Made by a program: the position numbers and the translations under genes
The notes under the pieces: model-generated
Database searches by the model: none
What the model was told of the DNA's origin: nothing
The model's input: the letters and a program-made list of their open reading frames with translations, nothing else
Source: Alphaproteobacteria bacterium
GTDB lineage: Bacteria > Pseudomonadota > Alphaproteobacteria > Rhizobiales > Hyphomicrobiaceae
Reading direction: 5' to 3'
NCBI GenBank assembly: GCA_018819265.1
Contig: JAHJQI010000085.1
Coordinates: 11,302-75,301, forward strand
DNA: 64,000 bases
Shown here: positions 31,487-55,994 of the stretch, piece by piece
Layout: every line of letters starts with the position of its first letter
How positions within the stretch are numbered: position 1 is the first letter of the stretch

Positions 31487-31512
31487 GGATGCAGAAATGC
31501 GCCCCGCTCCAG

Positions 31513-31629
31513 GGGTAGTAAAGTGCCTACCCGCCCGACGACGGCCCTACCCTGTCGGGTAGTCGATCCCAGTCAAAGCTCTGGTTCAATTAAAGAAAAT
31601 TCCCTTCTCCCGGCTATCCCGTCGGGTGG
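31513..31629. promoter_or_regulatory. Repeated CTACCC/GGGTAG palindromes upstream of sgaA
   Basis: CTACCCTGTCGGGTAG (31547-31562) and CTATCCCGTCGGGTGG (31614-31629), plus GGGTAG (31513) and CTACCC (31527) half-sites. Confidence 0.5.
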
Positions 31630-31785
31630 CAAATCCTATCCGCGCGGGTGTTGTTGGGCCTGCTACCAAAGTCCATAACAATCGGGACGCTGACCGGAGC
31701 TGGAGCTTCAGGAGGCGGGTGAAATTCAATGTCGGGCCCCGCATGGGCTCGGCGATCAGATAATGAACTCGGAGGGATCCAGCCT

Positions 31786-33003: not shown

Positions 33004-33256
33004 GCCAGTCTCAAATTCAAGTACACGGCAAGTGTTCTGGATCTAGCGCTTGTTTCCTGGCGAAGGTCGTCAAGCGTTGGTGAGCCCACAACACAAGCGA
33101 GCAGCTCGCTGGTCTTTCGGCGGAGGCGATTGGAAGCCAAGCGTCGGAGTCGGAATACTAGCCCCGCGGAAGTCACATCTGGTATGAGCCATGGTAGCGG
33201 CGCGGTCCTTCGCGCCGCATGAGGAAACTCGTGCCCACGAGAGGAAAGAAAACCCA

Positions 33257-34213: not shown

Positions 34214-34257
34214 GCCCCTCCGCGAAGGCCGCCGCTAACAAAAAAGGGAGGAATGGA

Positions 34258-35436: not shown

Positions 35437-35451
35437 GGGAGGATCAGTGAC

Positions 35452-36351: not shown

Positions 36352-36480
36352 TCCGGGGCCCACAACGGCCCGCGGCAGAACGAAACCTTCGGTCGAACAA
36401 GCATACCCAGGGCACGTCCGGACCGGCCGGAAGTGCCCTGGCAGATCCGCGATGAGCAACTGTCGAAAGAGGCAAAAACG

Positions 36481-43652: not shown

Positions 43653-45296
43653 ATGGCGGTGACGATTCAAAGGGAGCGGCCGGACCAGCGCCGCCATCAT
43701 CGTCTGACTGCGCCTCTTTTCGTCGAGGTGAGCGGCCATCGCGTGCGCGCTGCCGATTGGTCGCTGGGCGGCCTTCGGGTTGAAGGTTTCCCGGGTGATC
43801 TACCAAGCGTCGGCACTGCGGTCGACCTCGCGATGACGCTCCCCTTCCAGGGCTTCGACGTCGCCTTCAAGGCGACCGCCGAGGTGGTCCGCGCGCACCC
43901 TGCGCGCGGCATGTTCGCCGTCCAGTTCATCGAACTTGGCGACCGCGAACGCGAGCTGATGGCGCACTTCATCGAAGAACTGGTCCGCGGCCACATGGGT
44001 GATGCCGCCGACACCATCCAGCGGATCGACGTTCCGGTGACCCCGGCGTCCTTGCAGCCCGACGAACCCAGGAAGCCGCCGAATGAATCTGCCGATGCCA
44101 AACTCGAAAGGCTGCCCTGGCGCCGCTGGCCGGTAAAAACCATCGCAATGAGCGCTTTCTACATCGTGCTCGGCGTGGTCGTCTTTTCGTATGCCGGCAT
44201 TCTCACTTATTCGAATTTCTTCCGCATGGAAGTGCCGACTGCGGTCATTACGGCGCCGGTAGAGATGGTCGAGGCGCAGGCCGACGGCCACCTCGAATTT
44301 GCCGGCCTCAAGCAGGGCGACAGCGTCAGATCCGGCGATGTGCTGCTCAATCTCATCGACGGCAAGCTGGAGCGCGAGATCGAGCTTGCCGACATCGCCG
44401 TCAAGGAGCGCAAAGCCAAGCTCATCTATTTGAAGCGCCGCCATGCCGACGAATTGGAACGCGTCAAGAGTTTTGCCGCGATCGAGATGAAGAACGTCGA
44501 GCAGGCCCGCCTCTCGCTCGAGGCCGCCAATGTCAGCCTGCAGACTGCCCGAAACCAGTATGCACGTCTCAAGATCCTCTATGACAAGGGCTTCGCCACC
44601 CAGTCCCGCCTGGAGGAAGCGCAAGAGAAGATGGTGACGCTCGACACGCAGCTCGCAAGTCGGCGCATCGAGCTTGCGACCCGTGTCGGACTTGCCGAGG
44701 ACGATATCGGCAAGCGCCTCTATACCGGTGACGACCTCATCGGCAAGAGCGGCGAGCTTGATGCCGAGGTTCGCCTTGCCGAGCACGATATAGCTCTGAG
44801 CCAGCAGCGCTACATTGCCAATCTCAAGATGCGCGACAGCCTTGCTGTCCGCGCCCCGTTCGACGGAACCATCCTGAAGCTGCCACGCTTCGACAAGTCC
44901 GCGGTGCGCCGCGGCGACGTCATCGCAATTGTCGAGCAGCGGCGCAATCGCCAGGTCACGGCTTTCCTCACCCAGGACGAAGTCGCCAAGGTTGGCCTTG
45001 GCGACCAAGCGCTGCTTTATTTGCCGGCTCTTGGCGAAACATTGGCGGGACGCGTCACGTCGATCGATCGCACCAGCGGTTTCATTCGCGAACAAGAGCA
45101 GCGCGCGAACCCGGGTTACGCCTGGCGCGGCCCCACCGACCGCTCGGCCCAGGTGTCGATCAGCTTCGACGACGATGCGGTCCTGCGTGATTCCGAGCGC
45201 TATCGCTCAGGCCTTCCCGTCACCGTCATCTTCGAACAGCGCACGCAGAACTCGATCCTGTCGGGTATTGCGAGCAAGCTGGCGGTATCGATGTGA
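43653..45296 (+). CDS. alg44: Alg44-like PilZ + TM + HlyD/MFP-domain co-polymerase
   Basis: PilZ motifs QRRHHR (RxxxR) and DWSLGG (DxSxxG), one TM helix, then a biotin-lipoyl/coiled-coil/beta-barrel MFP region, directly upstream of alg8. Confidence 0.8.
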   Translation: MAVTIQRERPDQRRHHRLTAPLFVEVSGHRVRAADWSLGGLRVEGFPGDLPSVGTAVDLAMTLPFQGFDVAFKATAEVVRAHPARGMFAVQFIELGDRERELMAHFIEELVRGHMGDAADTIQRIDVPVTPASLQPDEPRKPPNESADAKLERLPWRRWPVKTIAMSAFYIVLGVVVFSYAGILTYSNFFRMEVPTAVITAPVEMVEAQADGHLEFAGLKQGDSVRSGDVLLNLIDGKLEREIELADIAVKERKAKLIYLKRRHADELERVKSFAAIEMKNVEQARLSLEAANVSLQTARNQYARLKILYDKGFATQSRLEEAQEKMVTLDTQLASRRIELATRVGLAEDDIGKRLYTGDDLIGKSGELDAEVRLAEHDIALSQQRYIANLKMRDSLAVRAPFDGTILKLPRFDKSAVRRGDVIAIVEQRRNRQVTAFLTQDEVAKVGLGDQALLYLPALGETLAGRVTSIDRTSGFIREQEQRANPGYAWRGPTDRSAQVSISFDDDAVLRDSERYRSGLPVTVIFEQRTQNSILSGIASKLAVSM

Positions 45297-45306
45297 GGGC
45301 TGATCG

Positions 45307-46884
45307 ATGACGGTTTCGACCGCCGCCTTCCACAGGCCCGCCGACCGGCCCATGTCGCAGAAGTGGCCGGTGGCCGTCCGCTTTCAGATTGTTGCCTACT
45401 TCACCGTCTGTTTCATCGCTATTTCGACATTGCCGAACTCGATCTGGAATACCGAGGTCCGCGGCTTCGTCTACGTCATCGGAATTCTCGGGATCTGGCG
45501 CTATCTGTGGTGGGCCAACCACTGGCTGCGCGCGATGATCTTCGCCAACCTCACCTATCCCAGGATGCGCGACCGCGCCGCCGCCGTCTGGAAGTCGGGC
45601 TGGCGACCGCGTCACATCCACATCCAGATGACCACGTTTCGCGAGCATCGCGGCATTTCGGAAGCCGTCATCCGCGGCCTCGTCCGCGATATCCGCGAAT
45701 GCGGCGTTCCCGCCACGATCTGGCTCGGCTCCAGCGAAGCCGAGGACGAGCGCCAGATTGCCGAGCACCTGAAATTGGTCGGCAGCGACTGTGATATCGC
45801 CTTGCGCATCATCCGCCAGAACCAGCCCGGCAAGCGCGTAGCTATCGCGCTCATCCTGAGGGCAATGTCGCGGGCGGGCCTTTCCGACGATGACCTCATC
45901 ATCTTCATGGACGGCGACTTCGTCATTCACCCGGGCATGATGCGGCGTTGCTTCCCGCTGTTTGCACTCGATAAGGAACTGCACGCGCTGACCACCGATG
46001 AATATGTCGAGGTGCAGGGGCCGCGCTGGATGCAGACCTGGCTCGACATGCGCTTTTCCCAGCGCCGGCTCGCCATGCAGAGCCACGCGCTTTCGAACCG
46101 TGTGCTGACACTGACCGGCCGCTTTTCGGTGTTTCGCGCCAAACACGTCATGACCAGCGAATTCATCCGGCTGCAGGAGGCGGACTTCCTGAGCCATTGG
46201 CTGTGGGGGACGTTCCGCTTCCTGTCGGGCGACGACAAGTCTTCGTGGTACTGTCTCCTGCGCCAAGGCGTTAAGATGACGTACGTGCCGGACGCTTCCG
46301 GCACCACGATCGAAGTCGTCGAGGGTTCTGGTTATCAGCGCATGGTGGAGAACCTGCGCCGCTGGTCGGGCAACATGCTGCGCAACGGCCAGCGCGCCAT
46401 CGCCCTCGGACCGCACCGCATGCCGTTCTTCATCTGGTGGTGCCTCGTCGACCAGCGCATCGCCATGTGGACCATGCTCTTCTCCCCGCTGCTGGCGATC
46501 GCGGGCACCATCAAGATCGGCCTGCCATTCCTGATATCCTATCTGATCTTCATCGCCGTCACCCGCATGCTCTTGTCGCTGGTGCTGTTCGCCTATGCGC
46601 CGAAAGTCGACCTCGGCTATGTCTGGATGCTTTACGCAAACCAGATCGTGAATGCCGTAGTCAAGGTCTACATGATCTGGCGGCTTGCCAAGCAGAAGTG
46701 GGCAAACCGCGGCAACCAGAAACAGGGCATGGAAAGCCTCGGATGGGTTGCCGTCGCGCGGGAAGGAATGGCGAGTTATTTGACCTGCCTGTCTTTCGGC
46801 AGTGTGTTTCTTATTGTAATGGTTTATACAAAATTGCTCGAAATACCCGGCTGGGCTTTTTTTGCTTCGATATTTTTCCGCTAG
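45307..46884 (+). CDS. alg8: Alg8-like GT2 mannuronan synthase
   Basis: FMDGDF, ALTTDEYVEV, RVLTLTGRFSVFRA, FRFLSGDDKSSW, YVPDA, LRRWSGNMLRN and DQRIAMWT parallel Pseudomonas Alg8 motifs. Confidence 0.88.
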   Translation: MTVSTAAFHRPADRPMSQKWPVAVRFQIVAYFTVCFIAISTLPNSIWNTEVRGFVYVIGILGIWRYLWWANHWLRAMIFANLTYPRMRDRAAAVWKSGWRPRHIHIQMTTFREHRGISEAVIRGLVRDIRECGVPATIWLGSSEAEDERQIAEHLKLVGSDCDIALRIIRQNQPGKRVAIALILRAMSRAGLSDDDLIIFMDGDFVIHPGMMRRCFPLFALDKELHALTTDEYVEVQGPRWMQTWLDMRFSQRRLAMQSHALSNRVLTLTGRFSVFRAKHVMTSEFIRLQEADFLSHWLWGTFRFLSGDDKSSWYCLLRQGVKMTYVPDASGTTIEVVEGSGYQRMVENLRRWSGNMLRNGQRAIALGPHRMPFFIWWCLVDQRIAMWTMLFSPLLAIAGTIKIGLPFLISYLIFIAVTRMLLSLVLFAYAPKVDLGYVWMLYANQIVNAVVKVYMIWRLAKQKWANRGNQKQGMESLGWVAVAREGMASYLTCLSFGSVFLIVMVYTKLLEIPGWAFFASIFFR

Positions 46885-47127
46885 TTCCATAAAATTGGCA
46901 GGACGCGTTTCAGTTTCATCCAATCAATCTCTGGCAGACTCCCTCAGCACACTGATCCTGCAGACAGGGTTCGAAACGATGGTCGTTTTCGAGAGGACAC
47001 GGCCAGCGCGGCATTTGTTGCCCCCAGGGGTTGACCCTGGAAAAATTGACACGCGGGAGCGTCAAGTTAAATGAGCGTATTTGGAAGCGCATCGGCCGTA
47101 TCGGCCAGCAGGTTGGTCGAGGATTTC

Positions 47128-48531
47128 ATGGCGGACGGGAATGCCGCCAACACGTCCGCAACCGATCGTCAGGCCCCCGATCGCGACGTCGTGAAACCAG
47201 CGATCAGCGTTGTCGGACTTGGCTACGTCGGTGCCGTCTCCATGGCTTGCCTGTCGCACCTTGGCTTCCGTATGGTCGGTGTCGACATCGCCAACCGTAA
47301 GGTCGAGATGATAAACACCGGCCGCTCTCCGATTGTCGAGGAACGGCTTGGCGAGTTGCTTGCAGAAGGCGTCGAGGACGGGCTCATCGCCGCCACCGAC
47401 AACCTGGTGGCTGCCGTTCTGCAGACGGACGTCACCTTGATCTCGGTCGGAACGCCGACCGCCGACGACGGCAGCTGTGATCTGACTTTCGTGCGCAAGG
47501 CCTCCCGCGCCATCGGCCAGGCCATCGCCATGAAGTCGTACTACCACGTCGTCGTGTTGCGCTGCTCGGTGCCCCCTGGGACGACCCTCGGCGTCGTCGC
47601 CCACGAAATCGAGAAGGCCTCGGGCAAGAAGCTCGGTCCCGATTTCGGCGTCTGTTTCAACCCGGAATTCCTGCGCGAGGGCGTGGCAGTCGCCGACTTC
47701 TTCGCACCCCCCAAGACAGTCGTCGGCGCCAGCGACTCGCGCGCCGCGTCAACGGTTTCGGCGATCTACGAAGCCGTTGATAGGAATGTGATATTCACGT
47801 CGATTGCCGCCGCGGAGATGGTCAAGTATGTCGACAACGTCTGGCACGCGACGAAGGTCGCCTTCGGCAACGAAGTCGGCCGCATCTGCAAGGAGCTCGA
47901 TATCGACAGCCACGACGTCATGGATATATTCGTGCGTGACACGAAGCTGAACCTCTCGCCCTACTATTTGAAGCCGGGCTTCGCATTTGGCGGTTCCTGC
48001 CTGCCCAAGGAAGTGCGCGCCGTCGGTCATCTCGCCGAGAAGCTGAAGGTCAGCGTCCCGCTGATCGATAGCCTCATGTCCTCGAACCGGTGCCAGGTCG
48101 ACCAGGCCGTCAAGCTGCTCGCACCCTTTGCGGGCAAGCGTATCGGCTTTCTTGGCCTCACCTTCAAGCCCGGTACCGACGACCTGCGCGAAAGCCCGAC
48201 CCTCGACGTGATGGCGGTGCTGCTTGAGCGTGGCGAGACGATTCAGGCCTACGATCCCAATCTGGCCTTCGGTCCTATGCTGCAAGGCCAGATCGATTAC
48301 GTCCGTCATGCCGTGCCGCGTCAGGCCCGCTTGATGGACGAACTCGAACAGCTGACCGTTGCCGATGCCGACGCGCTCGTTGCCGAAAGCGATGTCGTGG
48401 TTGTCAGCCACGCGACCGATTCCTTCCGCGCGGCCCTCGCACGCCGGTCCCCCTCGACTCATGTCATCGATCTGGCGCGGTTGAGCCGGGACATGTCGTC
48501 CAGCCAGACCTACCATGGCATTGCCTGGTAG
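47128..48531 (+). CDS. algD: GDP-mannose 6-dehydrogenase
   Basis: GLGYVGAV...SPIVE, NPEFLREG, EMVKYVDNVWHATKVAFGNE and KLNLSPYYLKPGFAFGGSCLPK (AlgD-type). A GAGGA RBS precedes ATG 47128. Confidence 0.9.
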   Translation: MADGNAANTSATDRQAPDRDVVKPAISVVGLGYVGAVSMACLSHLGFRMVGVDIANRKVEMINTGRSPIVEERLGELLAEGVEDGLIAATDNLVAAVLQTDVTLISVGTPTADDGSCDLTFVRKASRAIGQAIAMKSYYHVVVLRCSVPPGTTLGVVAHEIEKASGKKLGPDFGVCFNPEFLREGVAVADFFAPPKTVVGASDSRAASTVSAIYEAVDRNVIFTSIAAAEMVKYVDNVWHATKVAFGNEVGRICKELDIDSHDVMDIFVRDTKLNLSPYYLKPGFAFGGSCLPKEVRAVGHLAEKLKVSVPLIDSLMSSNRCQVDQAVKLLAPFAGKRIGFLGLTFKPGTDDLRESPTLDVMAVLLERGETIQAYDPNLAFGPMLQGQIDYVRHAVPRQARLMDELEQLTVADADALVAESDVVVVSHATDSFRAALARRSPSTHVIDLARLSRDMSSSQTYHGIAW

Positions 48532-49223
48532 CGTGCGGGTCAGCATCTGAGGGTTGCAGCAAAATCGCAGGCTTTCCGGCCTGTGTTCTTTTTCGTGCCT
48601 GTATCCTATGGTTTGCGGAAATTGTGACTCACCAGATCAAATTCAAATAGAATTGCGGTGCAGACAACAATTTCGTCGGACGGCTCGTTTCAACATCTAC
48701 TCTATATTCGGCACCGGTCGAATTGCGAATCGCATGTCGTGCGAATTCGTCGACGGAATTGAATAATAGCTCGAAAAGAGCGGCAGAGCGTCAAAGACAG
48801 AGAGAGTCAGGACATGGCAGACATCACCAAAAGCGTCGGCGACGGTTCGGCAAACCACAGAAGCCGGCAGCTTCGAACTGCTCGCCTGATCTGATCACCC
48901 GAACCGACGATCAGGGCCGCCGGGCATTCGTCCGGCAGAATCTTTTGCGTCTATTATTGATCCGGATGCCGTTGTCGGCAACGGGCCGGAGGGCTGCAAG
49001 GCCCTCCGGCGTTTCTCTGCCCTCTGAACGTTTTGTTAACCAAGCCGACATTAGCGTCCGCGACGTCAGCGCGCACGGCTGGGGGCACCCAGCAGCGATC
49101 ATGCGCGAAGTTGCGAAATGAACTTGTTCGAATTGCACATTGTCTGAATACGCGATCGCAACGCGCGCCTGCTAACGTTGGTTTATATCGGGGTTTGTAT
49201 CCGGGTTTGCGGTGGAGTTCATT

Positions 49224-51410
49224 GTGGTTAATAGAATCGATGGCACGGCAGGGGACGACATTATAGTCGGTACGGCTGGCGCTGACGAGATCGAGGGCGG
49301 CGCCGGCAGGGACCGCCTCAACGGCGGCGACGGCGATGACATCGTCTCCGGCGGCGATGACAACGATTACGTCTACGGCGACCGTGGCAATGACACCCTC
49401 TACGGCGGCGCCGGCAACGACGCGCTGGTCGGTGATTCCGGCGACGACCTGATCCACGGGCAAGACGGCAACGACGGCGTCTTCGGCGGCGGCAACAACG
49501 ACACCATTTACGGTGGCGCCGGCAACGACACGCTTTACGGCGACGGCGCAAATGACTTCATCGACGGCGGCGCGGACGACGACAAGCTGTTCGGCGGTTC
49601 GGGCAACGATACCCTTGTCTATACCGTGGGCGAAGGCGTCGACCAGCTGACCGGCAACACCGGCATCGATACCGTGCGCGTGGTCATGACCTCGGCCGAT
49701 CTCGACACCGCCCGCGCTGATCTTGGCGACTTCGCGGCTTGGCTCGATGGCCAGATCGCCGCTGCGGGTGGCGAAGCCGCCCACGCCGGCATCAATAACG
49801 GCGAAGGCTTTGCCTTCTCCAGCTTCGGCCTGACGGTGTCGGCCGTAGAGCGGGTCGAACTCATCGTCGACGGTGAGACGGTCGCCCTGCAGGACGCCCT
49901 CAACCAGACCCCGGTAGCAGCGGCCGAACAGACGGTGCTGGTTGCCGAAGACCTTAGCGTTACGGGCGCGGTCGGCGCTTCCGATCCCGACGGCGACCCA
50001 TTGAGCTTTTCGCTGTCCGAGGCACCCGCAAGCGGCGTTATTGAAGTCAACGAGGCAACGGGCGAGTTCACCTATACTCCGAACGGCGATTTTGCCGGAA
50101 GCGACAGCTTCACGGTGCTGATCGATGACGGCCGCGGCGGCACATTCCAGCAAATGGTCAACGTCGGCGTCGAAGCGGTCGCCGATGCGCCGACGCTCTT
50201 TGCGACCGTCAGCGAGGTCGCCGGCACCACGATCGAGGGGACCGGCAGCAGCGAGACGATCCACGGCACGAACGGCGACGACAGCATCAACGGCGGTTCC
50301 GGCAGCGACACGATCTACGGCGATGGCGGCAACGGATCCGGCGTGACCGTCTCGATCGATATCGAAGCGTCCTTGACCGACGCCGACGGCTCCGAAGCGC
50401 TCGGCATCATGATCGACGGCGTACCCGGCGACGCGACCCTGTCGGCAGGAACCGATCTTGGCGGCGGCTCGTGGCAACTGGCCGAAGACGATCTCGACGG
50501 CCTGACGATGACGCTCGCCGAGCCGCAGGATGTCACTCTCACCATCACCGCCACGGCAGCCGAAGCCAATGGCAGCTTCCAGTCCGTCACCCAGGTTCTT
50601 AAGGTTGCGGCGTCCACATTCGGTGGTGATGACGTGATCGCCGGCGGCGCCGGCAACGATGTGATCTATGGCGGCGCAGGCACCGACACGGTCGACTACT
50701 CGGGATCCGGCGGGGGAGTACTTGTGAATCTCGGGCTCGGCCTCGGCTTCGGCGAAGGCATCGATCAGATCTACGGAGTCGAGAATATCAACGGGTCTGG
50801 CGGTTCCGACATTTTGATCGGCAACAGTGGCAACAACGTCATCAACGGTGGTGCTGGCAACGACGTCATCGACGGCGGCAGCGGCATCGATACCGCAAGC
50901 TACGCTGGCGCGGCCTCAGGTGTTGATGTCGACCTGCAATCCGGGCAGGCGGGCGGCGGCGCGGGCAGCGACAAGATCGCGAACATCGAGAACCTTGTCG
51001 GATCCGACCACGCTGACGAATTGAGCGGCGACACTGGTGACAACGTCATTGATGGCGGCGCAGGTGCTGACACGCTCAGTGGAGGTCGCGGTGATGACGT
51101 CCTCGCCGGTGGCGCGGGCGCGGATACGTTCGTGTTCACCAAATCCGACGTCGTCTCCGGCAGCAGTCACTATGGCGTTGACCGCATCACCGATTTTGGC
51201 GCTGGCGACCGCCTCGACTTCGAGGATCTCCTCAATGGCGTCAAGTACGATGAACTCTCCGACGTCATACGCGCAACGACGACGGCAGAGGGCACGTTGT
51301 TGTCGATCGACATAAAGGGCTACAGCGGCTTTGCCGACGTCGTGTTTCTCGAAGGCGTCTTCGATCTCGACCTCGACTATCTCGACGGCAGCGGCCAGCT
51401 GATCGTCTAG
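49224..51410 (+). CDS. RTX Ca2+-binding repeat protein with cadherin/Ig-like domains, paralogue 2 (probable T1SS substrate)
   Basis: Same architecture as 19313-21604, with GGXGXD repeats, NQTPV...VGASDPDGD, LTDADGSEAL and DRITDF. It lies upstream of the T1SS genes. The start could be GTG 49212 or 49224. Confidence 0.87.
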   Translation: MVNRIDGTAGDDIIVGTAGADEIEGGAGRDRLNGGDGDDIVSGGDDNDYVYGDRGNDTLYGGAGNDALVGDSGDDLIHGQDGNDGVFGGGNNDTIYGGAGNDTLYGDGANDFIDGGADDDKLFGGSGNDTLVYTVGEGVDQLTGNTGIDTVRVVMTSADLDTARADLGDFAAWLDGQIAAAGGEAAHAGINNGEGFAFSSFGLTVSAVERVELIVDGETVALQDALNQTPVAAAEQTVLVAEDLSVTGAVGASDPDGDPLSFSLSEAPASGVIEVNEATGEFTYTPNGDFAGSDSFTVLIDDGRGGTFQQMVNVGVEAVADAPTLFATVSEVAGTTIEGTGSSETIHGTNGDDSINGGSGSDTIYGDGGNGSGVTVSIDIEASLTDADGSEALGIMIDGVPGDATLSAGTDLGGGSWQLAEDDLDGLTMTLAEPQDVTLTITATAAEANGSFQSVTQVLKVAASTFGGDDVIAGGAGNDVIYGGAGTDTVDYSGSGGGVLVNLGLGLGFGEGIDQIYGVENINGSGGSDILIGNSGNNVINGGAGNDVIDGGSGIDTASYAGAASGVDVDLQSGQAGGGAGSDKIANIENLVGSDHADELSGDTGDNVIDGGAGADTLSGGRGDDVLAGGAGADTFVFTKSDVVSGSSHYGVDRITDFGAGDRLDFEDLLNGVKYDELSDVIRATTTAEGTLLSIDIKGYSGFADVVFLEGVFDLDLDYLDGSGQLIV

Positions 51411-51498
51411 CCCAACACCGGCTCGCCGAGTGTTGGCAGAAAAAGCCCAACACCGGCTTGCCGAGTGTTGGCAGGAAAAAGCCCAACACCGGCTTGCC
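51411..51498. repeat. Tandem array of the same hairpin family as 39361 (2 full units + 1 partial)
   Basis: CCCAACACCGGCT(C/T)GCCGAGTGTTGGCA units at 51411 and 51446, partial at 51482, with G(G)AAAAAG linkers. The array starts right after the RTX gene TAG (in CTAG). Confidence 0.9.
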
Positions 51499-51646
51499 TC
51501 CGGCACGAGCTTGCGAAGTGTCGGTGCAACCAGATGTTGGTCGAAAGCAGCGTTGGACAAAGGCAGTGCGACCCAATGAATTGGCGGCATCAGGAGCAAT
51601 ATTGAACTCAGCCTGTGTTCGCGGCCCACCAGCCATGCACACCGAC

Positions 51647-51670
51647 GTCATTCCCGCGCAGGCGGGAACC
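51647..51670. repeat. REP-like palindrome of the GTCATTCCCGCG...GCGGGAAT type
   Basis: GTCATTCCCGCGCAGGCGGGAACC, a well-known dispersed proteobacterial palindrome type. Confidence 0.6.
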
Positions 51671-52044
51671 TAAGCGAGCCTGCGGGTTCGTCGAAATTTC
51701 CGATACTGCACGGTATCAGGCAATACCGGCGTGCCGGAGATCAAGCAGAACAGGATCGTACGGGCGCGGATGCGCCGAAGGCATGGGGATCCAAAGCGCC
51801 CGAAAGGAAAACTCTCGTTTTTGGGACGGCGCCTAAGGCTTTGTTGACCAGTGACAAGCCGACAACGCTCGCCGGGTTCGGCGATCGTAAAGGACTTTGG
51901 CTTAGTCTCCTCGTTGTCTGCTCGAGCAATGCCCGCGTGCATCCTCACGCCAGCCTCGCAATCTGCTTGCGCAGACCGGCGCGCTTCTAGGTGGGAAGCC
52001 GGCCGCCACGGTGAAATGAATCGCCTGCAACGGGGACTTGTTAC

Positions 52045-53739
52045 ATGCGTACCTCAAGGCGGATACTCGGCCAGATCCGCCGGGCTGTCTTCGTGGCATT
52101 CCTGTTTTCAGGCTGCATCAATGTCCTGATGCTGGCCATGCCGCTCTACACCTTGCAGATCTTCGAGAACGTGCTTCCCGTCGGCAGCATCGAGACACTG
52201 CTCGTCCTGACGGCGTTGATCGCGGCCGCGATCGCCGCACTCGCCTTGATCGAGATAGCGCGCGACCGGATCATGCTGCGCGCCGCCGTCTGGATCGATC
52301 ACGAGCTTGGCCAGCACATTCTTGAGAACGGTCTGAAGCAACGCGCATGCTCATCGGAGCTGAGGGCCGACGCGCGCGCCTTGATGCGCTTGCGAGCGTG
52401 CCTGACGAGCCCGGCAGTGATGCCGCTGTTTGATGCCCCCTTCGTGCCGCTGTTCCTTTTGATACTCATTGCGCTGCATCCGATGATCGGCCTCGTCGCC
52501 GCCGCCGCCGCCGTCGCCTTGCTGCTGACGGCGCTCGTGCACATCCTCACGACGGCAAAGCTGCACGAGGAATCGGCCCAGTCCAGCGAGCGCGCCGAAC
52601 ACTGGTGGTCGACGGTCGCCGGCAACGGGCAGATGGCCGGAGCCCTTGGCATCGGTCCCGGCGCGACAAACCAGTGGGAGTGGTTCAACCGCGCCCAGAT
52701 CGCCAGTTCCTATTCGCTCGGCAAGCGCTCCGGCACCGTCAAGATCGTGTCCCGCACAGTCCGGCTCAGCGCCCAGTCCGGCGTCTACGGCGTCGGGGCT
52801 TGGCTGGTTGTCGCCGGAGAATTGACCCCGGGCGCGTTGGTCGCATCCGCGATTCTGATTTCGCGCGTCGTCGGTCCGCTCGAACAGCTGGTCGGCTCGA
52901 TCAAGGCGATCCGCACGGCCTGGGTGTCCTACAGTCGTCTCAAGGCGCTGCCCGCCGACGCCGTCGTTCCGGCCCTCGGCGAACGCGACACGGCCCCCCG
53001 CGGCGCCATCGTGCTGTCCCAGGTCGTCGTCCACCATCCCGGCCGCAAGACCGCAGCGCTGCGTGCCGTCAGCCTCGAAATTGCGCCCGGATCGTGCCTG
53101 GCTCTCGTCGGCCCCAACGGTGCCGGCAAGTCGACGCTGGCCGCCGTAATCGCCGGAGCGGTCGTGCCGTCCAGCGGCGCTGCCGATCTCGACGGCGTTC
53201 CCGTGCACAAGTGGCAGCGTTGGGAAGGCCTGCCCCCGGTCGGCTTCGCACCCGATGAGCCGGCGCTGATTGAAGGCACGGTGCATGCGAACATCGCCCG
53301 TTTCCGTGAAGCCAGCCTCATGTCGGTAGGTGCCGCAGCCGTGAAGGCCGGCGTCCACGAAGTCCTTCAACGCCTGCCGGAGGGCTACGACACCAATGCC
53401 GGACCTCAGGGCCGTTACTTGTCGCTGAGCGAGCGCCGCGCGGTTTCGCTTGCCCGCGCGTTGCATGGATTGCCTTGCCTGATCGTCCTCGACGAACCCG
53501 AAGCAGGGCTCGACGGTGCAGGCGTGCGCCGCCTCATCGACACGCTCAATGCCCTAAAGGCGACAGGTGTCGGTCTCGTCATTGCAACCCAGGACCCGCG
53601 CCTCCTCGCCCTCGCCGACAATATCGCGCTACTTGCCGAGGGCAGTCTGGTGTCGCTGCAACCCGCGTCCTCGATGCTCGACTCCTACGAAATGACGCGC
53701 ACCAGACAGCAGCCCGCCGAAGCCGTCGGGCTTCACTGA
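52045..53739 (+). CDS. Type I secretion ABC transporter (PrtD/AprD-like), with a degenerate signature
   Basis: INVLMLAMPLYTLQ, FDAPFVPLFL, Walker A GPNGAGKS and Walker B LIVLDEP. The signature is LSLSE instead of LSGGQ, and the switch is ATQ instead of SH. Confidence 0.88.
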   Translation: MRTSRRILGQIRRAVFVAFLFSGCINVLMLAMPLYTLQIFENVLPVGSIETLLVLTALIAAAIAALALIEIARDRIMLRAAVWIDHELGQHILENGLKQRACSSELRADARALMRLRACLTSPAVMPLFDAPFVPLFLLILIALHPMIGLVAAAAAVALLLTALVHILTTAKLHEESAQSSERAEHWWSTVAGNGQMAGALGIGPGATNQWEWFNRAQIASSYSLGKRSGTVKIVSRTVRLSAQSGVYGVGAWLVVAGELTPGALVASAILISRVVGPLEQLVGSIKAIRTAWVSYSRLKALPADAVVPALGERDTAPRGAIVLSQVVVHHPGRKTAALRAVSLEIAPGSCLALVGPNGAGKSTLAAVIAGAVVPSSGAADLDGVPVHKWQRWEGLPPVGFAPDEPALIEGTVHANIARFREASLMSVGAAAVKAGVHEVLQRLPEGYDTNAGPQGRYLSLSERRAVSLARALHGLPCLIVLDEPEAGLDGAGVRRLIDTLNALKATGVGLVIATQDPRLLALADNIALLAEGSLVSLQPASSMLDSYEMTRTRQQPAEAVGLH

Positions 53740-53754
53740 AATCGAGGAACACCG

Positions 53755-54720
53755 ATGACCGTCAACCTGACGTCGCGCAACAAGTTGAAACGCATTCCGC
53801 GCCTCGATATCCGGGCGCCGGTGCTGTTCGGCTTGAGCATCATCGTGCTGTTCTTCGGCGCCGGCATCGGTGGCGCCGCGATCATGCCGCTTGACCGGGG
53901 CGTCGGCATGTCGGGCCAGTTCATTGTCGAGACCAAGGTCAAATTGGTGCAGCACGAGCGCGGCGGACGCATTGCCGCGATTCATGTTGCCGAAGGTCAG
54001 GAAGTTGCGGAAGGCGACATCGTCGTCACCTTCGATACTTCCGCGCTGATCGAACAGATCGAGGCTCTCAAGGCCCAGGCCGGGGCGTCCTTCCGGCAGC
54101 TCGATCTGGCGCGCCAGGAAGCATCCACCATGAACGATCTTCTCGAAAGGAAGCTGACCCAGCGCTCCCGCGTTCTCGCAATTGAGCGCCAGGTGGCGCA
54201 GATCGAGAAGGAAGTCGCCTCCATCAATGCGCGTGTTGCGGTTGCCGAGCAGGAACTCACGCATGCCGAAGTCCGCTCGCCTGTCTCGGGACGCGTCCTG
54301 ACATTGAAGGTCAACGGTATCGGTGCCGTCGCCGAACCGGGCGGAATATTGATGGAAGTCGTCCCGGCCTCCGACAAGCTCGTCATCGAAGGCCGCCTGC
54401 CGCCCGACAGCATCGAGAACGTCGTCCCCGGCATGGCCGCCAAGGTCTGGCTGCCGGCGTTGAGCTGGCGCGAGCAGCGCCCGCTTGCCGCGAAACTGTC
54501 CTGGGTTTCCCCTGACAGCGTCGAAGACCAGCGCACCGGCGGTCGCTATTTTACTGCACGCCTCGTCCTCGACGAGGCTGCGGCCCGGGAACTGTCAGGC
54601 AAGCTGACGCTGGTTCCCGGCATGCGCGCCGAGATCATGCTTCTGACCGGCAAGCGCACGTTGCTCGACCAAATCGTAAACCCGCTCATGCGTAATATGA
54701 ACCGCGCGTTCCGCAACTGA
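53755..54720 (+). CDS. Type I secretion membrane fusion protein (PrtE/HlyD-like), short
   Basis: TM anchor, VQHERGGRIAAIHVAEGQEV, EVRSPVSGRV, LMEVVP and LVPGMRAEI...GKRTLLD. Confidence 0.9.
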   Translation: MTVNLTSRNKLKRIPRLDIRAPVLFGLSIIVLFFGAGIGGAAIMPLDRGVGMSGQFIVETKVKLVQHERGGRIAAIHVAEGQEVAEGDIVVTFDTSALIEQIEALKAQAGASFRQLDLARQEASTMNDLLERKLTQRSRVLAIERQVAQIEKEVASINARVAVAEQELTHAEVRSPVSGRVLTLKVNGIGAVAEPGGILMEVVPASDKLVIEGRLPPDSIENVVPGMAAKVWLPALSWREQRPLAAKLSWVSPDSVEDQRTGGRYFTARLVLDEAAARELSGKLTLVPGMRAEIMLLTGKRTLLDQIVNPLMRNMNRAFRN

Positions 54721-54725
54721 GCCAA

Positions 54726-54889
54726 CTAGTTCCGGTTCTGACATTTGGTTCCCTTGCGGCACTGTGCAGAGCAAATGTCAGAACCATAAGGAACTAGCAA
54801 ACCTATGATTCTAGTGTAGCTTTTGCATCTAACGTTTGGTCGGTACGCCAGCCGCTTGTGAGGACCAAACGTTAGATGCGCTACACTAG
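54726..54889. repeat. CTAG-bounded double-hairpin element, copy B (inverted relative to A, C and D)
   Basis: Hairpin 54726-54797 (22-bp perfect stem, ATAA bulge), 13-nt spacer CAAACCTATGATT, hairpin 54811-54889 (27-bp perfect stem, TTTT bulge). Confidence 0.9.
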
Positions 54890-54917
54890 AAACAGATGAT
54901 CCGTTAGGCCACATCAA

Positions 54918-55781
54918 ATGCAGCAGTTCAACGTCAAGTCGATCCTGTTCAACGCCGCCGCCGGAATTGTTGTCCTCTCGACTGTCATCTTCATGCTGCG
55001 CAGCCTGTTCGTGGCCGAGGTCATCCCGCCGTGCTCGGCGCGCTACCCTTCGCCAACGGAGTTCACGCTCGACAACGGCAACGGACCGATGAGCCCCGTT
55101 CAGCTTGTCGGCATGATCGGCACGACGCAGCGCGGCATCTACCGCAACGCCAAGGTGGTGCGGGTACGCGATACCTCCGGCAAGCATGCACTCAAGGTCG
55201 CGCTTCGTCCCGACGGCGAAGATGCACGGACCACCGGTGAGGGCAACGGCATTGCATTTCAGTGGTCGCCAGCTGGCATGGCGGGAGCGACCGCCGCCTG
55301 CCTGTCGTATTCGGTCTATCTGCCGGAAAAGTTCGACTTTGGCGGCGGTGGAGTGCTGCCGGGGCTTTATGCCGGCGCACCCGAAACGATCAATGAATCC
55401 TCCGACGGCAAGCGCGCTGTCGCCCAGCGTCTCGTCTGGCGCAACAACGGCCGGGCAAATCTTTACGCGCAGCTTCCCGGATATGAAGCCAACGGCGGTG
55501 CCTACCTGCACCAGGACGGCATCGCGTTTCCAAGCGGGCGCTGGGTCAAGGTCGAGCAGGAGATAAAGCTCAACGATCTGGGCAAGGCCAACGGCCTGAG
55601 CCGCCTCTATCTCGATGGAAAAATAGAAATCGAGAAGCAGTGGATCGAGTGGCGCAAGAACGGCAAGCTGACGCTTTCGGGTGTCCACGCCGAAGTTACC
55701 TATGCGATGCCGCGCCGGGATCTGCAGCCGCCGAAGGAAACCGCCATCTACGTGACGCCGCTGCAGTTGCGCTGGCGCTGA
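54918..55781 (+). CDS. Membrane-anchored PL14-like polysaccharide lyase domain protein
   Basis: N-terminal TM, then CLSYSVYLPEKFDFGGGGVLPGLYAG and WVKVEQEIKLND...NGLSRLYLDG, which resemble the PL14 FDF.KGGKLPGL and W...Q...LN...DG motifs. Confidence 0.7.
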   Translation: MQQFNVKSILFNAAAGIVVLSTVIFMLRSLFVAEVIPPCSARYPSPTEFTLDNGNGPMSPVQLVGMIGTTQRGIYRNAKVVRVRDTSGKHALKVALRPDGEDARTTGEGNGIAFQWSPAGMAGATAACLSYSVYLPEKFDFGGGGVLPGLYAGAPETINESSDGKRAVAQRLVWRNNGRANLYAQLPGYEANGGAYLHQDGIAFPSGRWVKVEQEIKLNDLGKANGLSRLYLDGKIEIEKQWIEWRKNGKLTLSGVHAEVTYAMPRRDLQPPKETAIYVTPLQLRWR

Positions 55782-55961: not shown

Positions 55962-55994
55962 CCCGCGGTCGCCCCCGATCGCGGGACTTTTTTT
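55962..55994 (+). terminator. Intrinsic terminator after the lyase gene
   Basis: Stem CCCGCGGTCG/CGATCGCGGG with a CCCC loop, followed by ACTTTTTTT. Confidence 0.6.

What the first reader, a model, noticed from the sequence alone, without database searches (positions are those of the whole stretch)
43653..55781. Minimal alginate-like synthase (alg44-alg8-algD) linked to an RTX protein, a T1SS and a PL14-like protein in an alphaproteobacterium
Seen: all genes are on one strand: PilZ-MFP with intact c-di-GMP motifs, Alg8-type GT2, AlgD-type dehydrogenase, RTX-Ig protein, PrtD/PrtE-like T1SS, and a PL14-like protein, ending in a terminator. The core order is reversed relative to Pseudomonas algD-8-44, and no algK/E/G/X/L/I/J/F/A is in the window. 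Known: alginate systems are characterised in Pseudomonas/Azotobacter, where Azotobacter exports RTX-module epimerases by T1SS; PL14 includes alginate lyases. Inference: an undescribed mannuronan biofilm/capsule system, with c-di-GMP-activated unacetylated polymer, a non-AlgKE export route, a PL14 protein in the AlgL role and a secreted Ca2+-binding matrix protein.
Basis: partly seen in the sequence, partly recalled or inferred. Interest (0 to 1): 0.8.

Follow-up and report, generated by a model that had tools for sequence, protein, structure and literature searches.

The report
TolC-coupled mannuronan synthase gene cluster
A methylotrophic soil/water bacterium (family Hyphomicrobiaceae) carries a stripped-down alginate-type sugar-polymer factory whose c-di-GMP-sensing partner protein looks built to plug into a TolC-type outer-membrane channel rather than the usual alginate pore, and it always sits next to secreted calcium-binding proteins and usually next to a lyase-like protein.

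Summary

- The dehydrogenase is AlgD-type (44% identity over the full length to P. aeruginosa GDP-mannose dehydrogenase).
- The GT2 belongs to the small, discrete Alg8 family.
- The "Alg44" shares only its PilZ domain with real Alg44. Its periplasmic part is an EmrA/LipC-like adaptor with a roughly 75-residue helical hairpin.
- The tip of that hairpin carries an invariant RxxxLxxxxxxT motif, the motif that binds TolC. This gives the "non-AlgKE route" a concrete candidate: a synthase–adaptor–TolC tripartite exporter, as proposed for rhizobial mixed-linkage glucan (BgsA/BgsB/TolC).

The core is family-wide. In the best 80 of 238 related Hyphomicrobiaceae species loci:
- alg44-like lies directly upstream of alg8 in 73/73 testable loci.
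- algD lies directly downstream in 73/75.
- An RTX gene follows in 56/56.
- PL14-like is present in at least 33/47.
- The T1SS is present in only 22/47.

The PL14-like protein has the PL14 fold and a membrane anchor. In this lineage it lacks three of the five canonical active-site residues, so its lyase activity is doubtful. More canonical alginate-like clusters exist in Rhizobium and Roseobacter replicons. I rate this a new variant of a known kind, with moderately high interest.

The parts
43653..45296 (+). PilZ-TM-adaptor protein (547 aa), 'Alg44-like'. It has a cytoplasmic PilZ domain, one TM helix and a periplasmic EmrA/HlyD-type membrane-fusion domain with a long alpha-hairpin.
   Evidence: Pfam PilZ plus HlyD_3. 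The AF2 model has mean pLDDT 77: PilZ at 23-110, disordered linker at 108-156, TM helix at 161-190, helices at 237-311, 317-351 and 366-396. Best Foldseek PDB matches are EmrA of EmrAB-TolC (E 7e-18) and then MacA. A profile search of PDB gives LipC and EmrA and no Alg44 PilZ. It lies directly upstream of alg8 in 73/73 loci.
43689..43772 (+). c-di-GMP-binding PilZ motifs: RxxxR (aa 13-17, RRHHR) and DxSxxG (aa 35-40, DWSLGG).
   Evidence: Read directly from the sequence. All motif residues are invariant in 33 homologs.
44565..44600 (+). RLT motif (RxxxLxxxxxxT; aa 305-316, RLKILYDKGFAT) at the predicted hairpin tip. This is a candidate TolC-docking site.
   Evidence: It is the only match to the pattern in the protein and sits at the AF2 tip. 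R305, L309 and T316 are present in 33/33 homologs. Only 1.6% of shuffles of the hairpin region place such a motif at the tip. The motif definition and its mutational validation in HlyD, MacA and AcrA come from PMC3391258.
45307..46884 (+). Alg8-family processive GT2 (525 aa), the putative mannuronan synthase.
   Evidence: Pfam Glyco_tranf_2_3. JGI names homologs 'mannuronan synthase / glycosyltransferase Alg8'. It is 33-37% identical over at least 79% of its length (at least 83% in 13 of 14 records) to the GT2s of Rhizobium and Roseobacter clusters that also hold AlgX, AlgL-type lyase, beta-helix and Sel1 genes. The family is discrete: 510 representatives among 1.84 billion proteins. DGD (202-204), SGDDK (307-311) and RRW (351-353) are invariant.
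47071..48531 (+). GDP-mannose 6-dehydrogenase (AlgD-type). The true start is possibly 47131 or later.
   Evidence: Best PDB match is P. aeruginosa GMD 1MFZ: 380 bits, full length, 44% identity, catalytic GGSCLPK conserved. The best UDP-glucose dehydrogenase scores 272 bits. It lies directly downstream of alg8 in 73/75 loci.
48566..48585 (+). Terminator-like hairpin plus T-run after algD. It is followed by a 680-bp non-coding gap.
   Evidence: In close relatives this gap position holds DUF4114-RTX genes.
49212..51410 (+). RTX-Ig-RTX protein (732 aa), a T1SS substrate.
   Evidence: HemolysinCabind in 10 stretches, Big_9/Cadherin_5 at 231-320, and the T1SS C-terminal target domain TIGR03661 at 657-708. 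No beta-helix or AlgE A-module was found. At least one RTX ORF follows algD in 56/56 loci.
52045..53739 (+). T1SS ABC permease/ATPase (PrtD-type, no C39 peptidase domain).
   Evidence: TIGR01842 at 438 bits, the best match but below its cutoff of 510. Present in 22/47 related loci.
53755..54720 (+). T1SS membrane-fusion protein (321 aa, short).
   Evidence: TIGR01843 at 205.8 bits against a cutoff of 208.65. It has a single RLS/T motif at aa 114-125, RQLDLARQEAST.
54918..55781 (+). Membrane-anchored PL14-like protein (287 aa).
   Evidence: PF21294 at 99 bits. PDB sequence hits are AkAly30 (1.7e-10) and vAL-1. The AF2 model has pLDDT 91, with an N-terminal helix at 6-31 followed by a beta-jelly roll. 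Top Foldseek matches are AkAly30 (E 2e-15, TM 0.65-0.71), vAL-1 and PL36 Aly36B. C39 and C128 are invariant. The canonical Lys, Ser and second Tyr are replaced by V146, A169 and Q185.
55962..55985 (+). Terminator-like hairpin plus T-run closing the cluster. It lies between convergent genes.

Best explanation
This is a family-wide Hyphomicrobiaceae locus for a c-di-GMP-gated polymannuronate (alginate-type) exopolysaccharide. The polymer is made by a three-gene core and, I infer, exported through a TolC-type channel.

Proposed steps:
1. AlgD-type dehydrogenase makes GDP-mannuronate. Enzyme identity is shown by homology.
2. The Alg8-family GT2 polymerises it at the inner membrane. Family membership is shown; the donor and product are inferred.
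3. The co-transcribed PilZ-TM-adaptor binds c-di-GMP at its cytoplasmic PilZ domain and activates Alg8. The motifs are shown; activation is inferred by analogy with Alg44.
4. The adaptor's long EmrA/LipC-like hairpin, tipped by an invariant RLT motif, docks a TolC-family outer-membrane channel encoded elsewhere. This would form a synthase-adaptor-TolC conduit in place of AlgK/AlgE. It is inferred from structure and motif, and it is analogous to BgsA-BgsB-TolC.
5. One or more RTX proteins encoded just downstream are secreted by the adjacent T1SS where it is present, or otherwise by another T1SS. They act outside the cell as Ca2+-dependent partners of the polyuronate, for matrix, adhesion or binding. 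The secretion signal is shown; the role is inferred.
6. The membrane-anchored, periplasm-facing PL14-like protein handles polymer that goes astray in the periplasm, in an AlgL-like role. In this lineage it may bind rather than cleave.

With no AlgG, AlgI, AlgJ, AlgF or AlgX nearby, the product is predicted to be unepimerised, unacetylated mannuronan.
For: - AlgD identity: 380 bits and 44% identity over the full length to 1MFZ, against 272 bits for the best Ugd.
- Alg8 family: source names; 33-37% identity to GT2s that sit inside canonical-type clusters; a discrete family.
- PilZ motifs are invariant.
- Adaptor: AF2 hairpin; EmrA and MacA as the best folds; LipC and EmrA as the best PDB profile hits; a single invariant RLT motif at the tip, with the motif validated in PMC3391258.
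- The Rhizobium and Jannaschia Alg44-like proteins, which sit in clusters with Sel1/TPR genes, have no hairpin and no RLS motif.
- Precedents for GT2 + HlyD-type MFP + TolC: PMC13438883 and the cyanobacterial cellulose work it cites.
- Synteny: 73/73, 73/75, 56/56 and at least 33/47. No other recurrent gene family lies downstream.
- An Alg8-PL14 fusion protein exists.
- PL14 fold and anchor.
- RTX R-modules bind alginate in Azotobacter enzymes, and every known alginate cluster encodes a periplasmic lyase (PMC4444821).
Against: - No TolC/OEP gene is in the window or in the flanks of relatives, so TolC coupling is untested.
- Only 64 kb of this genome could be searched, so AlgK/E/G/X/L could lie elsewhere.
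- I could not compare Alg8 directly with the Pseudomonas protein, because no reference sequence was available in the tools.
- A terminator-like hairpin after algD and long non-coding gaps suggest that the RTX, T1SS and PL14 genes are separate transcription units.
- A 41%-identical RTX-Ig paralog lies 30 kb away with no alg genes beside it.
- The T1SS is absent from about half of the related loci.
- The PL14-like protein lacks three of the five canonical residues in this lineage and in most relatives.
- The Alg8-PL14 fusion rests on one 2.7-kb metagenomic contig.
- No polymer chemistry is known.
Confidence: 0.55

Rival explanations
1. This is a canonical alginate pathway split across the genome. 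AlgK, AlgE, AlgG, AlgX, AlgL (and AlgI/J/F, AlgA) are encoded elsewhere, and the polymer leaves through an AlgE-type porin. The long hairpin of the adaptor would be incidental.
For: Only 64 kb of the genome is visible. AlgA-type functions must be elsewhere in any case. Absence from +/-10 kb flanks does not show absence from the genome.
Against: The adaptor's nearest relatives are TolC-docking MFPs, and it carries an invariant RLT tip. Alphaproteobacterial clusters that do have Sel1/TPR, beta-helix, AlgX and AlgL-type genes keep them beside alg8 and use a short, hairpin-less Alg44. In 80 species none of these genes has drifted next to the core.
Confidence: 0.1
2. There are two independent systems that are merely neighbours. 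alg44-like, alg8 and algD make a polymer. The RTX and T1SS genes (and perhaps PL14) are an unrelated adhesin-secretion module parked at a variable site.
For: There is a terminator-like hairpin and a 680-bp gap after algD. RTX gene content is highly variable between species. The T1SS is present in only 22/47 loci. An RTX-Ig paralog lies elsewhere in the window. The chromosomal context is otherwise a conserved housekeeping backbone.
Against: An RTX ORF follows algD in 56/56 loci despite turnover in RTX type, and PL14-like is retained at the distal end in at least 33/47. PL14 is a uronate-lyase fold and is fused to an Alg8-like GT2 in one metagenomic protein. RTX modules bind alginate in Azotobacter enzymes.
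Confidence: 0.2
3. The PL14-like protein of this lineage is not an active lyase. It is a catalytically degenerate, membrane-anchored polyuronate-binding or scaffold protein of the export apparatus. This is compatible with the main model.
For: V146, A169 and Q185 replace the Lys, Ser and second Tyr that align with AkAly30 K/S/Y and vAL-1 K/S/Y. Only 3 of 36 Hyphomicrobiaceae homologs (L070, L079, L083) keep the full GGK / S-x-R / Y-x-Y set. The invariant residues instead are C39, C128, LPG147-149, R171, W209, E215 and N219.
Against: The fold is intact and modelled with high confidence. R171 and Y183 are retained. Related PL36 enzymes use a different catalytic arrangement (title of the reference cited in PMC8618178). 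My assignment of catalytic roles in PL14 is from memory of the vAL-1 and AkAly30 papers, which I could not open.
Confidence: 0.45
4. The polymer is not mannuronan. The Alg8-like GT2 would use another donor or make a heteropolymer, and the dehydrogenase would feed a different pathway.
For: No chemistry is available. GT2 specificity cannot be read from sequence. PL14 also contains glucuronan lyases.
Against: The dehydrogenase is clearly nearer to GMD than to any Ugd and is adjacent to alg8 in 73/75 loci. The same pairing occurs in canonical-type clusters.
Confidence: 0.1

Closest known systems
Pseudomonas/Azotobacter alginate system (algD-8-44-K-E-G-X-L-I-J-F-A)
   Same: It has an AlgD-type GDP-mannose dehydrogenase, an Alg8-family GT2, a single-pass partner protein with an N-terminal c-di-GMP-binding PilZ domain and a periplasmic MFP-type domain, and a polyuronate-lyase-fold protein in the cluster.
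   Different: The gene order is reversed (44-8-D). No AlgK/AlgE, AlgG, AlgX/I/J/F or PL5 AlgL is in the cluster. The partner protein is about 160 aa longer, with an EmrA/LipC-like hairpin and an RLT tip. A PL14-like protein replaces PL5. RTX genes are always adjacent.
BgsA-BgsB-TolC mixed-linkage beta-glucan system of Sinorhizobium meliloti (PMC13438883), and the cyanobacterial cellulose tripartite system cited there
   Same: It is an alphaproteobacterial, c-di-GMP-controlled processive GT2, encoded next to an HlyD-type adaptor, with no dedicated porin gene. In the MLG system TolC is genetically required and a tripartite conduit is proposed.
   Different: The polymer is predicted to be a polyuronate, not a glucan. 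The c-di-GMP receptor is a PilZ domain on the adaptor, not on the synthase. TolC dependence has not been tested here.
Alginate-like clusters on Rhizobium chromids and Roseobacter-group plasmids (e.g. NZ_CP044010 and NZ_CP081156, annotated only generically)
   Same: They are alphaproteobacterial, and their Alg8-family GT2 is 33-37% identical. An AlgD-type dehydrogenase lies adjacent.
   Different: These clusters keep the Pseudomonas order and carry a short, hairpin-less Alg44, TPR/Sel1 (AlgK-like), beta-helix/NosD (AlgG-like), AlgX and PF05426 alginate-lyase genes. They have no RTX, T1SS or PL14 genes.
Azotobacter vinelandii secreted AlgE epimerases and the AlyA3 lyase (RTX R-modules)
   Same: They are Ca2+-binding RTX proteins functionally tied to an alginate-type polymer and secreted to the outside.
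   Different: The RTX protein here has no A-module or beta-helix catalytic domain. It has only RTX blocks plus Ig/cadherin-like domains. Relatives carry DUF4114-RTX proteins.
PL14 lyases AkAly30 (Aplysia) and vAL-1 (Chlorella virus)
   Same: It passes the Pfam PL14 model. It has a beta-jelly-roll fold with TM 0.6-0.7. The LPG, Arg and first Tyr positions are conserved.
   Different: It is bacterial, membrane-anchored and embedded in a biosynthetic cluster. In this lineage it lacks the Lys, Ser and second Tyr.

Membership tests
Canonical bacterial alginate biosynthesis system | GDP-mannose 6-dehydrogenase (AlgD) | tested here: met
   380 bits, 44% identity, full-length alignment to P. aeruginosa GMD 1MFZ, with the catalytic Cys motif conserved. 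The best Ugd scores 272 bits.
Canonical bacterial alginate biosynthesis system | Alg8-family polymerase | tested here: met
   This test is indirect. The supporting points are a discrete family, JGI names, and 33-37% identity to GT2s inside clusters that hold AlgX, AlgL, beta-helix and Sel1 genes. I could not compare it with the P. aeruginosa Alg8 sequence. PDB has no hit.
Canonical bacterial alginate biosynthesis system | Alg44 orthologue (PilZ plus a short MFP-like periplasmic domain) | tested here: not met
   PilZ is present with intact motifs. However, no match to the solved Alg44 PilZ appears even with a profile at E<=1. Only the PilZ region aligns (26% identity) with the Rhizobium Alg44-like protein. 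The periplasmic part is EmrA/LipC-like with a long hairpin.
Canonical bacterial alginate biosynthesis system | AlgK lipoprotein plus AlgE porin for outer-membrane export | tested here: not met
   They are absent from the window and from the +/-10 kb flanks of 80 related loci. The rest of the genome cannot be tested with these tools.
Canonical bacterial alginate biosynthesis system | AlgG epimerase and an AlgL-type lyase in the cluster (stated as universal in PMC4444821) | tested here: not met
   No beta-helix/NosD domain and no PF05426 domain is in the window. A PL14-like protein is present instead.
Canonical bacterial alginate biosynthesis system | O-acetylation genes AlgI/J/F/X | tested here: not met
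   None is in the window or in the recurrent neighbour families.
Synthase-adaptor-TolC tripartite EPS secretion (BgsAB-TolC type) | Processive inner-membrane GT2 encoded next to an HlyD/EmrA-type adaptor | tested here: met
   There is a 10-bp gap between the two genes, and they are adjacent in 73/73 loci. The fold and profile hits are EmrA, MacA and LipC.
Synthase-adaptor-TolC tripartite EPS secretion (BgsAB-TolC type) | TolC-binding RLS/RLT motif at the hairpin tip | tested here: met
   R305-L309-T316 is the single occurrence, it sits at the AF2 tip, and it is invariant in 33/33 homologs. The motif definition is from PMC3391258.
Synthase-adaptor-TolC tripartite EPS secretion (BgsAB-TolC type) | Genetic or physical requirement for TolC | not testable with these tools
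   No OEP gene is in the window, and this needs experiment.
Polysaccharide lyase family 14 | Sequence and fold membership | tested here: met
   PF21294 at 99 bits against a cutoff of 27. Foldseek best matches are AkAly30 and vAL-1, E about 1e-15.
Polysaccharide lyase family 14 | Canonical active-site set (Lys of GGK, Ser-x-Arg, Tyr-x-Tyr). Residue roles are recalled from the vAL-1 and AkAly30 papers and were not re-read. | tested here: not met
   The window protein has V146, A169, R171, Y183 and Q185. The full set is kept in only 3 of 36 Hyphomicrobiaceae homologs, and in the Alg8-PL14 fusion P0248.
Type I secretion system with RTX substrate | ABC exporter plus MFP, with a substrate that has nonapeptide repeats and a C-terminal signal | tested here: met
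   The best NCBIfam models are PrtD-type (438 bits) and HlyD T1SS-type (205.8 bits), both just under their cutoffs. The RTX protein has 10 repeat stretches, and the TIGR03661 C-terminal domain scores above its cutoff. The outer-membrane component is not in the window.
AlgE-type secreted mannuronan C-5 epimerases | Catalytic A-module (right-handed beta-helix) preceding the R-modules | tested here: not met
   Only HemolysinCabind and Big_9/Cadherin_5 were found. The remaining segments are Ig-like or repeat sequence.

The most novel reading that the evidence does not exclude
An alginate-type polyuronate is polymerised by Alg8 and threaded out through TolC by a PilZ-gated EmrA-like adaptor. This would be a third, polyanionic example of tripartite synthase-adaptor-TolC polysaccharide secretion. 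The obligatorily linked RTX proteins would be dedicated Ca2+-dependent partners that bind, cross-link or anchor the polymannuronate. The system is ancestral to Hyphomicrobiaceae, so it would make these common wastewater and soil methylotrophs a real genetic source of alginate-like exopolymer.
Probability: 0.35. Interest if true: 0.75.

Novelty: new variant of a known kind. Interest (0 to 1): 0.62.

Why it matters
Synthase-dependent exopolysaccharide systems are usually described as using a dedicated TPR-protein and porin pair: AlgK/E, BcsC or PgaA. A TolC-coupled route has only just been proposed, for two neutral glucans.

If an Alg8 polymerase also works through a TolC-docking, c-di-GMP-sensing adaptor, three things follow:
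- The tripartite route is general and can handle polyanions.
- It defines a minimal three-gene module (plus TolC) for making pure, unacetylated, unepimerised polymannuronate. That polymer is the preferred substrate for in-vitro epimerase tailoring of alginates.
- It gives a testable genetic basis for alginate-like polymers in Hyphomicrobiaceae-rich biofilms.

The strict RTX linkage, and the drift of the PL14-like active site, also offer a natural experiment on what accessory proteins a polyuronate secretion system needs.

Tried and rejected
- **Glucuronan hypothesis** (Ugd plus PL14 glucuronan lyase). NCBIfam listed only UDP-glucose dehydrogenase equivalogs. I rejected this because the PDB search puts P. 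aeruginosa GMD far ahead, with a full-length alignment.
- **RTX protein as an AlgE-type epimerase or lyase.** Rejected, because no A-module or beta-helix was found. The DUF4114-RTX proteins of relatives also lack one.
- **Plasmid or mobile origin.** There was no megablast hit in PLSDB. The locus lies in a conserved chromosomal backbone next to serine-cycle genes.
- **Riboswitch or known RNA in the long non-coding gaps.** No credible Rfam match.
- **Direct comparison with P. aeruginosa Alg8 or Alg44.** This was not possible. There are no PDB sequence hits, and cluster look-ups of representatives gave no Pseudomonas names.
- **Reading the PL14 structure papers for the catalytic residues.** They are not held, so the residue roles are from memory.
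- **More Alg8-PL14 fusions among long family members.** None was found beyond P0248. Several members carry beta-helix-like C-termini instead.
- **TolC/OEP, AlgK or AlgE among recurrent neighbours of 80 loci.** None was found.
- **Literature on alg8 in Hyphomicrobium or Alphaproteobacteria.** Nothing relevant was found.

Full report
**What is in the window.** The window is from a member of the Hyphomicrobiaceae. The nearest homologs of its proteins come from Filomicrobium and Hyphomicrobium MAGs. The region upstream of the finding encodes the serine cycle of a methylotroph: class-V aminotransferase, malyl-CoA-lyase-type HpcH, two-subunit malate thiokinase-type CoA ligase, and PEP carboxylase. 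It also encodes the glycine-cleavage system.

On the + strand between 43653 and 55781 there are seven genes with coding-type GC3:
- a PilZ + HlyD_3 protein
- a GT2 (Glyco_tranf_2_3)
- a three-domain nucleotide-sugar dehydrogenase
- an RTX/Ig protein
- an ABC exporter
- a membrane-fusion protein
- a Polysacc_lyase_14 protein

The flanking genes are unrelated: an FAD-linked oxidase upstream and an SNase-domain gene on the opposite strand downstream. None of the other ORFs I scanned in the 64 kb carries an AlgK/E/G/X/L/I/J/F/A-type or OEP/TolC domain. That includes the intact RxxxR (R13-R17) and DxSxxG (D35-G40) PilZ motifs and a terminator-like hairpin about 180 bp after the last gene.

**The precursor enzyme and the polymerase.** NCBIfam offered only UDP-glucose dehydrogenase equivalogs. 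That raised the possibility of a glucuronan system, because PL14 also contains glucuronan lyases. The PDB search settles the question. P. aeruginosa GDP-mannose dehydrogenase (1MFZ) is the best match by a wide margin: 380 bits, full length, 44% identity, GGSCLPK catalytic motif conserved. The best UDP-glucose dehydrogenase scores 272 bits.

The GT2 has no detectable relative in the PDB, even with a profile. It belongs to a small, discrete family of 510 representatives at E<=1e-3 among 1.84 billion. Sources that name its members call them 'mannuronan synthase' or 'glycosyltransferase Alg8'.

It is 33-37% identical, over at least 79% of its length (at least 83% in 13 of 14 records), to GT2s on Rhizobium chromids and Roseobacter-group plasmids. 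Those GT2s sit in clusters of clearly canonical alginate type:
- Rhizobium sp. BG6: dehydrogenase, GT2, a 378-aa PilZ/HlyD_3 protein, a TPR + beta-helix/NosD protein, a PF05426 alginate lyase, and a Sel1-repeat protein.
- Jannaschia: dehydrogenase, GT2, a nucleotidyltransferase, a NosD protein, an ALGX-domain protein, a Sel1 protein and an alginate lyase.

I take this as good, though indirect, evidence that the window GT2 is an Alg8-family polymerase. It also shows that alginate-type clusters are not restricted to Pseudomonas and Azotobacter.

**The 'Alg44' is something else beyond its PilZ domain.** The 547-aa protein is about 160 residues longer than the Rhizobium Alg44-like protein, and only its PilZ region aligns with it (26% identity). 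Neither the single sequence nor a 33-sequence profile finds the solved Alg44 PilZ domain. The best PDB sequence relatives are the T1SS adaptor LipC and the MFS-pump adaptor EmrA.

An AlphaFold2 model (mean pLDDT 77) shows:
- a PilZ barrel at 23-110
- a disordered linker
- one TM helix at 161-190
- a lipoyl/beta-barrel membrane-fusion body
- a 75-residue helix at 237-311, returning through helices 317-351 and 366-396

Foldseek puts EmrA of the EmrAB-TolC pump first (E 7e-18), followed by MacA of MacAB-TolC.

At the predicted hairpin tip lies RLKILYDKGFAT (305-316). This fits the RxxxLxxxxxx[S/T] 'RLS/RLT' motif. Mutagenesis and binding assays identified that motif as the TolC-contacting tip of MacA, AcrA and HlyD (PMC3391258). 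It is the only such match in the protein. R305, L309 and T316 are invariant in 33/33 homologs. Only 1.6% of shuffles of the hairpin region place a match at the tip. The Rhizobium and Jannaschia Alg44-like proteins have neither a hairpin nor the motif.

This is an inference, because no TolC gene is in the window. It has direct precedent. In Sinorhizobium meliloti the c-di-GMP-activated GT2 BgsA and the HlyD-type BgsB need TolC to make mixed-linkage glucan, and a tripartite complex is proposed. A similar scheme exists for cyanobacterial cellulose (PMC13438883).

**Conservation.** A scan of one genome per GTDB species found 238 loci encoding a relative of the GT2. The best 80 are all Hyphomicrobiaceae/Hyphomicrobiales MAGs.

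| Feature | Loci with it / loci testable |
|---|---|
| PilZ-adaptor gene directly upstream of alg8 | 73/73 |
| Dehydrogenase directly downstream of alg8 | 73/75 |
| At least one RTX-repeat ORF, where at least 2.5 kb follows the dehydrogenase | 56/56 |
| PL14-like gene, where at least 8 kb follows | 33/47 |
| T1SS ABC gene, where at least 8 kb follows | 22/47 |
| T1SS MFP gene, where at least 8 kb follows | 17/47 |

Seven further loci end inside the T1SS, before the position where PL14 would be expected.

All-against-all clustering of downstream ORFs reveals no other recurrent family, in particular no porin, TPR/Sel1 or beta-helix protein. The surrounding backbone is also conserved: PEP carboxylase, methyltransferase, DUF2541, FAD oxidase on one side; SNase, TPR, methyltransferase, aspartokinase on the other. 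The locus is therefore ancestral and vertically inherited, with a variable RTX/T1SS middle.

Most relatives carry DUF4114 + RTX proteins right after the dehydrogenase. In this window that segment is missing and is replaced by a 680-bp non-coding gap. The RTX-Ig gene, which in relatives immediately precedes the T1SS, follows directly here. It is half met for the T1SS.

**The RTX protein and the T1SS.** The 732-aa protein has two blocks of nonapeptide repeats, an Ig/cadherin-like domain and the TIGR03661 T1SS C-terminal target domain. It has no beta-helix A-module of the Azotobacter AlgE epimerases. The ABC protein is PrtD-type and lacks a peptidase domain. The MFP is short (321 aa) and has its own single RLS/T motif.

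The simplest reading is a T1SS with its substrate. Its functional tie to the polymer is inferred from three things: the 56/56 adjacency, the polyanionic Ca2+-binding nature of polyuronates, and the fact that RTX R-modules of Azotobacter epimerases and the AlyA3 lyase bind alginate (PMC4444821).

Three points argue against a tight coupling. There is a terminator-like hairpin after the dehydrogenase. There are long non-coding gaps. And a 41%-identical RTX-Ig paralog lies at 19313-21604 with no alg genes beside it.

**The PL14-like protein.** It passes the Pfam model comfortably (99 bits). It matches AkAly30 and vAL-1 by sequence and by fold. The AF2 model has pLDDT 91, and the best Foldseek matches are AkAly30 at E 2e-15 with TM 0.65-0.71, then vAL-1, then PL36 Aly36B. 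An N-terminal helix (6-31) and two invariant cysteines (C39, C128) point to a membrane-anchored, periplasm-facing protein. That is the right compartment for an AlgL-like role, and every known alginate cluster encodes such a lyase.

Independent support for a synthase-PL14 partnership comes from a metagenomic protein, P0248 (777 aa). It is an Alg8-like GT2 fused to a PL14 domain (196 bits). It rests on a single 2.7-kb contig, and I found no second fusion.

The caveat is the active site. Aligned to AkAly30 and vAL-1, the window protein has V146 where they have the Lys of 'GGK'. It has A169 for the Ser two residues before the conserved Arg, and Q185 for the second Tyr of Y-x-Y. It keeps R171 and Y183. 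Only 3 of 36 Hyphomicrobiaceae homologs, and the fusion protein, keep the whole set. The catalytic importance of those five residues is from my memory of the two structure papers, which I could not open. I therefore rate 'active lyase' and 'degenerate binding/scaffold protein' as about equally likely for this lineage.

**Mechanism proposed, and how much is shown.** Shown by homology or structure prediction:
- AlgD-type enzyme
- Alg8-family GT2
- PilZ with intact motifs
- a TolC-type adaptor architecture with an invariant RLT tip
- an RTX T1SS substrate
- a T1SS ABC/MFP pair
- a PL14 fold with a membrane anchor
- family-wide synteny

Inferred:
- GDP-mannuronate is polymerised to poly-beta-1,4-mannuronate.
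- c-di-GMP binding to the adaptor activates Alg8.
- The adaptor bridges Alg8 to TolC.
- The product is unacetylated and unepimerised. This rests only on the absence of the relevant genes from 64 kb here and from the +/-10 kb flanks in relatives.
- The RTX proteins act on or with the polymer.
- The PL14-like protein polices the periplasm.

Overall confidence in this composite model is about 0.55. The weakest links are the RTX role and PL14 catalysis. The main untested alternative is that AlgK/E/G/X/L lie elsewhere in the genome.

**Comparison and novelty.** The system works like a hybrid of two things: the alginate polymerase core (AlgD, Alg8, PilZ control) and a BgsAB-TolC-type tripartite secretion apparatus. 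It is not a member of the canonical alginate system. It fails the tests for an Alg44 orthologue, AlgK/E, AlgG, AlgL (PL5) and AlgI/J/F/X. It meets the sequence-level criteria of the tripartite type.

I found no publication on alg8 or alg44 in Hyphomicrobium, nor on this architecture. Database entries are annotated only as 'glycosyltransferase', 'HlyD family efflux transporter periplasmic adaptor subunit' or 'polysaccharide lyase'. I rate it a new variant of a known kind, of moderately high interest, and directly testable.

Noticed in passing
window 19313-21604 (+): This is a second RTX-Ig-RTX protein (763 aa). It is 41% identical over its full length to the cluster's RTX protein and has the same architecture, but no alg or T1SS genes lie beside it.
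   Followed up: partly
window 51404-51498: Three tandem copies of a 35-36-nt unit, each containing a hairpin (CCAACAC...GTGTTGG), lie right after the RTX stop codon. A similar sequence occurs downstream of ppc in the related locus L001 (3743-3810), so this looks like a dispersed REP-like element.
   Followed up: partly
window 48532-49211, compared with L004 6100-9763 and L005 13474-16919: Close relatives carry one or two extra RTX genes between algD and the RTX-Ig gene (a DUF4114+RTX protein and an RTX-only protein). This window has a 680-bp non-coding gap there, which suggests a deletion. The N-terminal 160-250 aa of the DUF4114-RTX proteins have no known domain.
   Followed up: partly
proteins P0248, P0260, P0245, P0337 (from the representative search): Alg8-family GT2s occur fused to other domains. 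One fusion is to a PL14 domain with the canonical residues (P0248). Several are to beta-helix 'Pect-lyase_RHGA_epim'-like C-termini, including a Leptolyngbya protein (P0260). Many members of 880-960 aa have unassigned C-terminal halves.
   Followed up: partly
L085 (Rhizobium sp. BG6 pRPC 103476-124792); L084 (Jannaschia sp. M317 plasmid): These are near-canonical alginate-type clusters on alphaproteobacterial secondary replicons. They hold algD, alg8, a short alg44, a TPR/beta-helix protein, a PF05426 lyase, Sel1 and AlgX. They are annotated only generically or not at all.
   Followed up: partly
window 17788-18747 and 25954-39360: A serine-cycle and C1 gene set marks the organism as a methylotroph: hydroxypyruvate-reductase-type dehydrogenase, gcvT/H/P, a LuxR-type response regulator, class-V aminotransferase, malyl-CoA-lyase-type HpcH, two CoA-ligase subunits, and PEP carboxylase. 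The polysaccharide locus is syntenic with this backbone across the family.
   Followed up: partly
window 15715-16131 and 22000-24000: There is an IS4/5-family transposase fragment (DUF4096). There are also two lower-GC stretches (0.52-0.56) containing a GntR/UTRA regulator and TadE/TadG-like Flp-pilus genes (23727-25944).
   Followed up: no
L086 (GCA_036704275.1, 4.28-Mb contig): In this relative the dehydrogenase (183 + 282 aa) and the FAD oxidase (337 + 131 aa) are each split into two ORFs. These are either assembly indels or pseudogenisation. The contig belongs to an assembly with more than 25,000 contigs, which may be a host-associated or contaminant genome.
   Followed up: no
window 53755-54720: The T1SS membrane-fusion protein is only 321 aa, and it has the same length in relatives. 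That is much shorter than typical HlyD/PrtE adaptors, yet it keeps a single RLS/T motif at aa 114-125.
   Followed up: no
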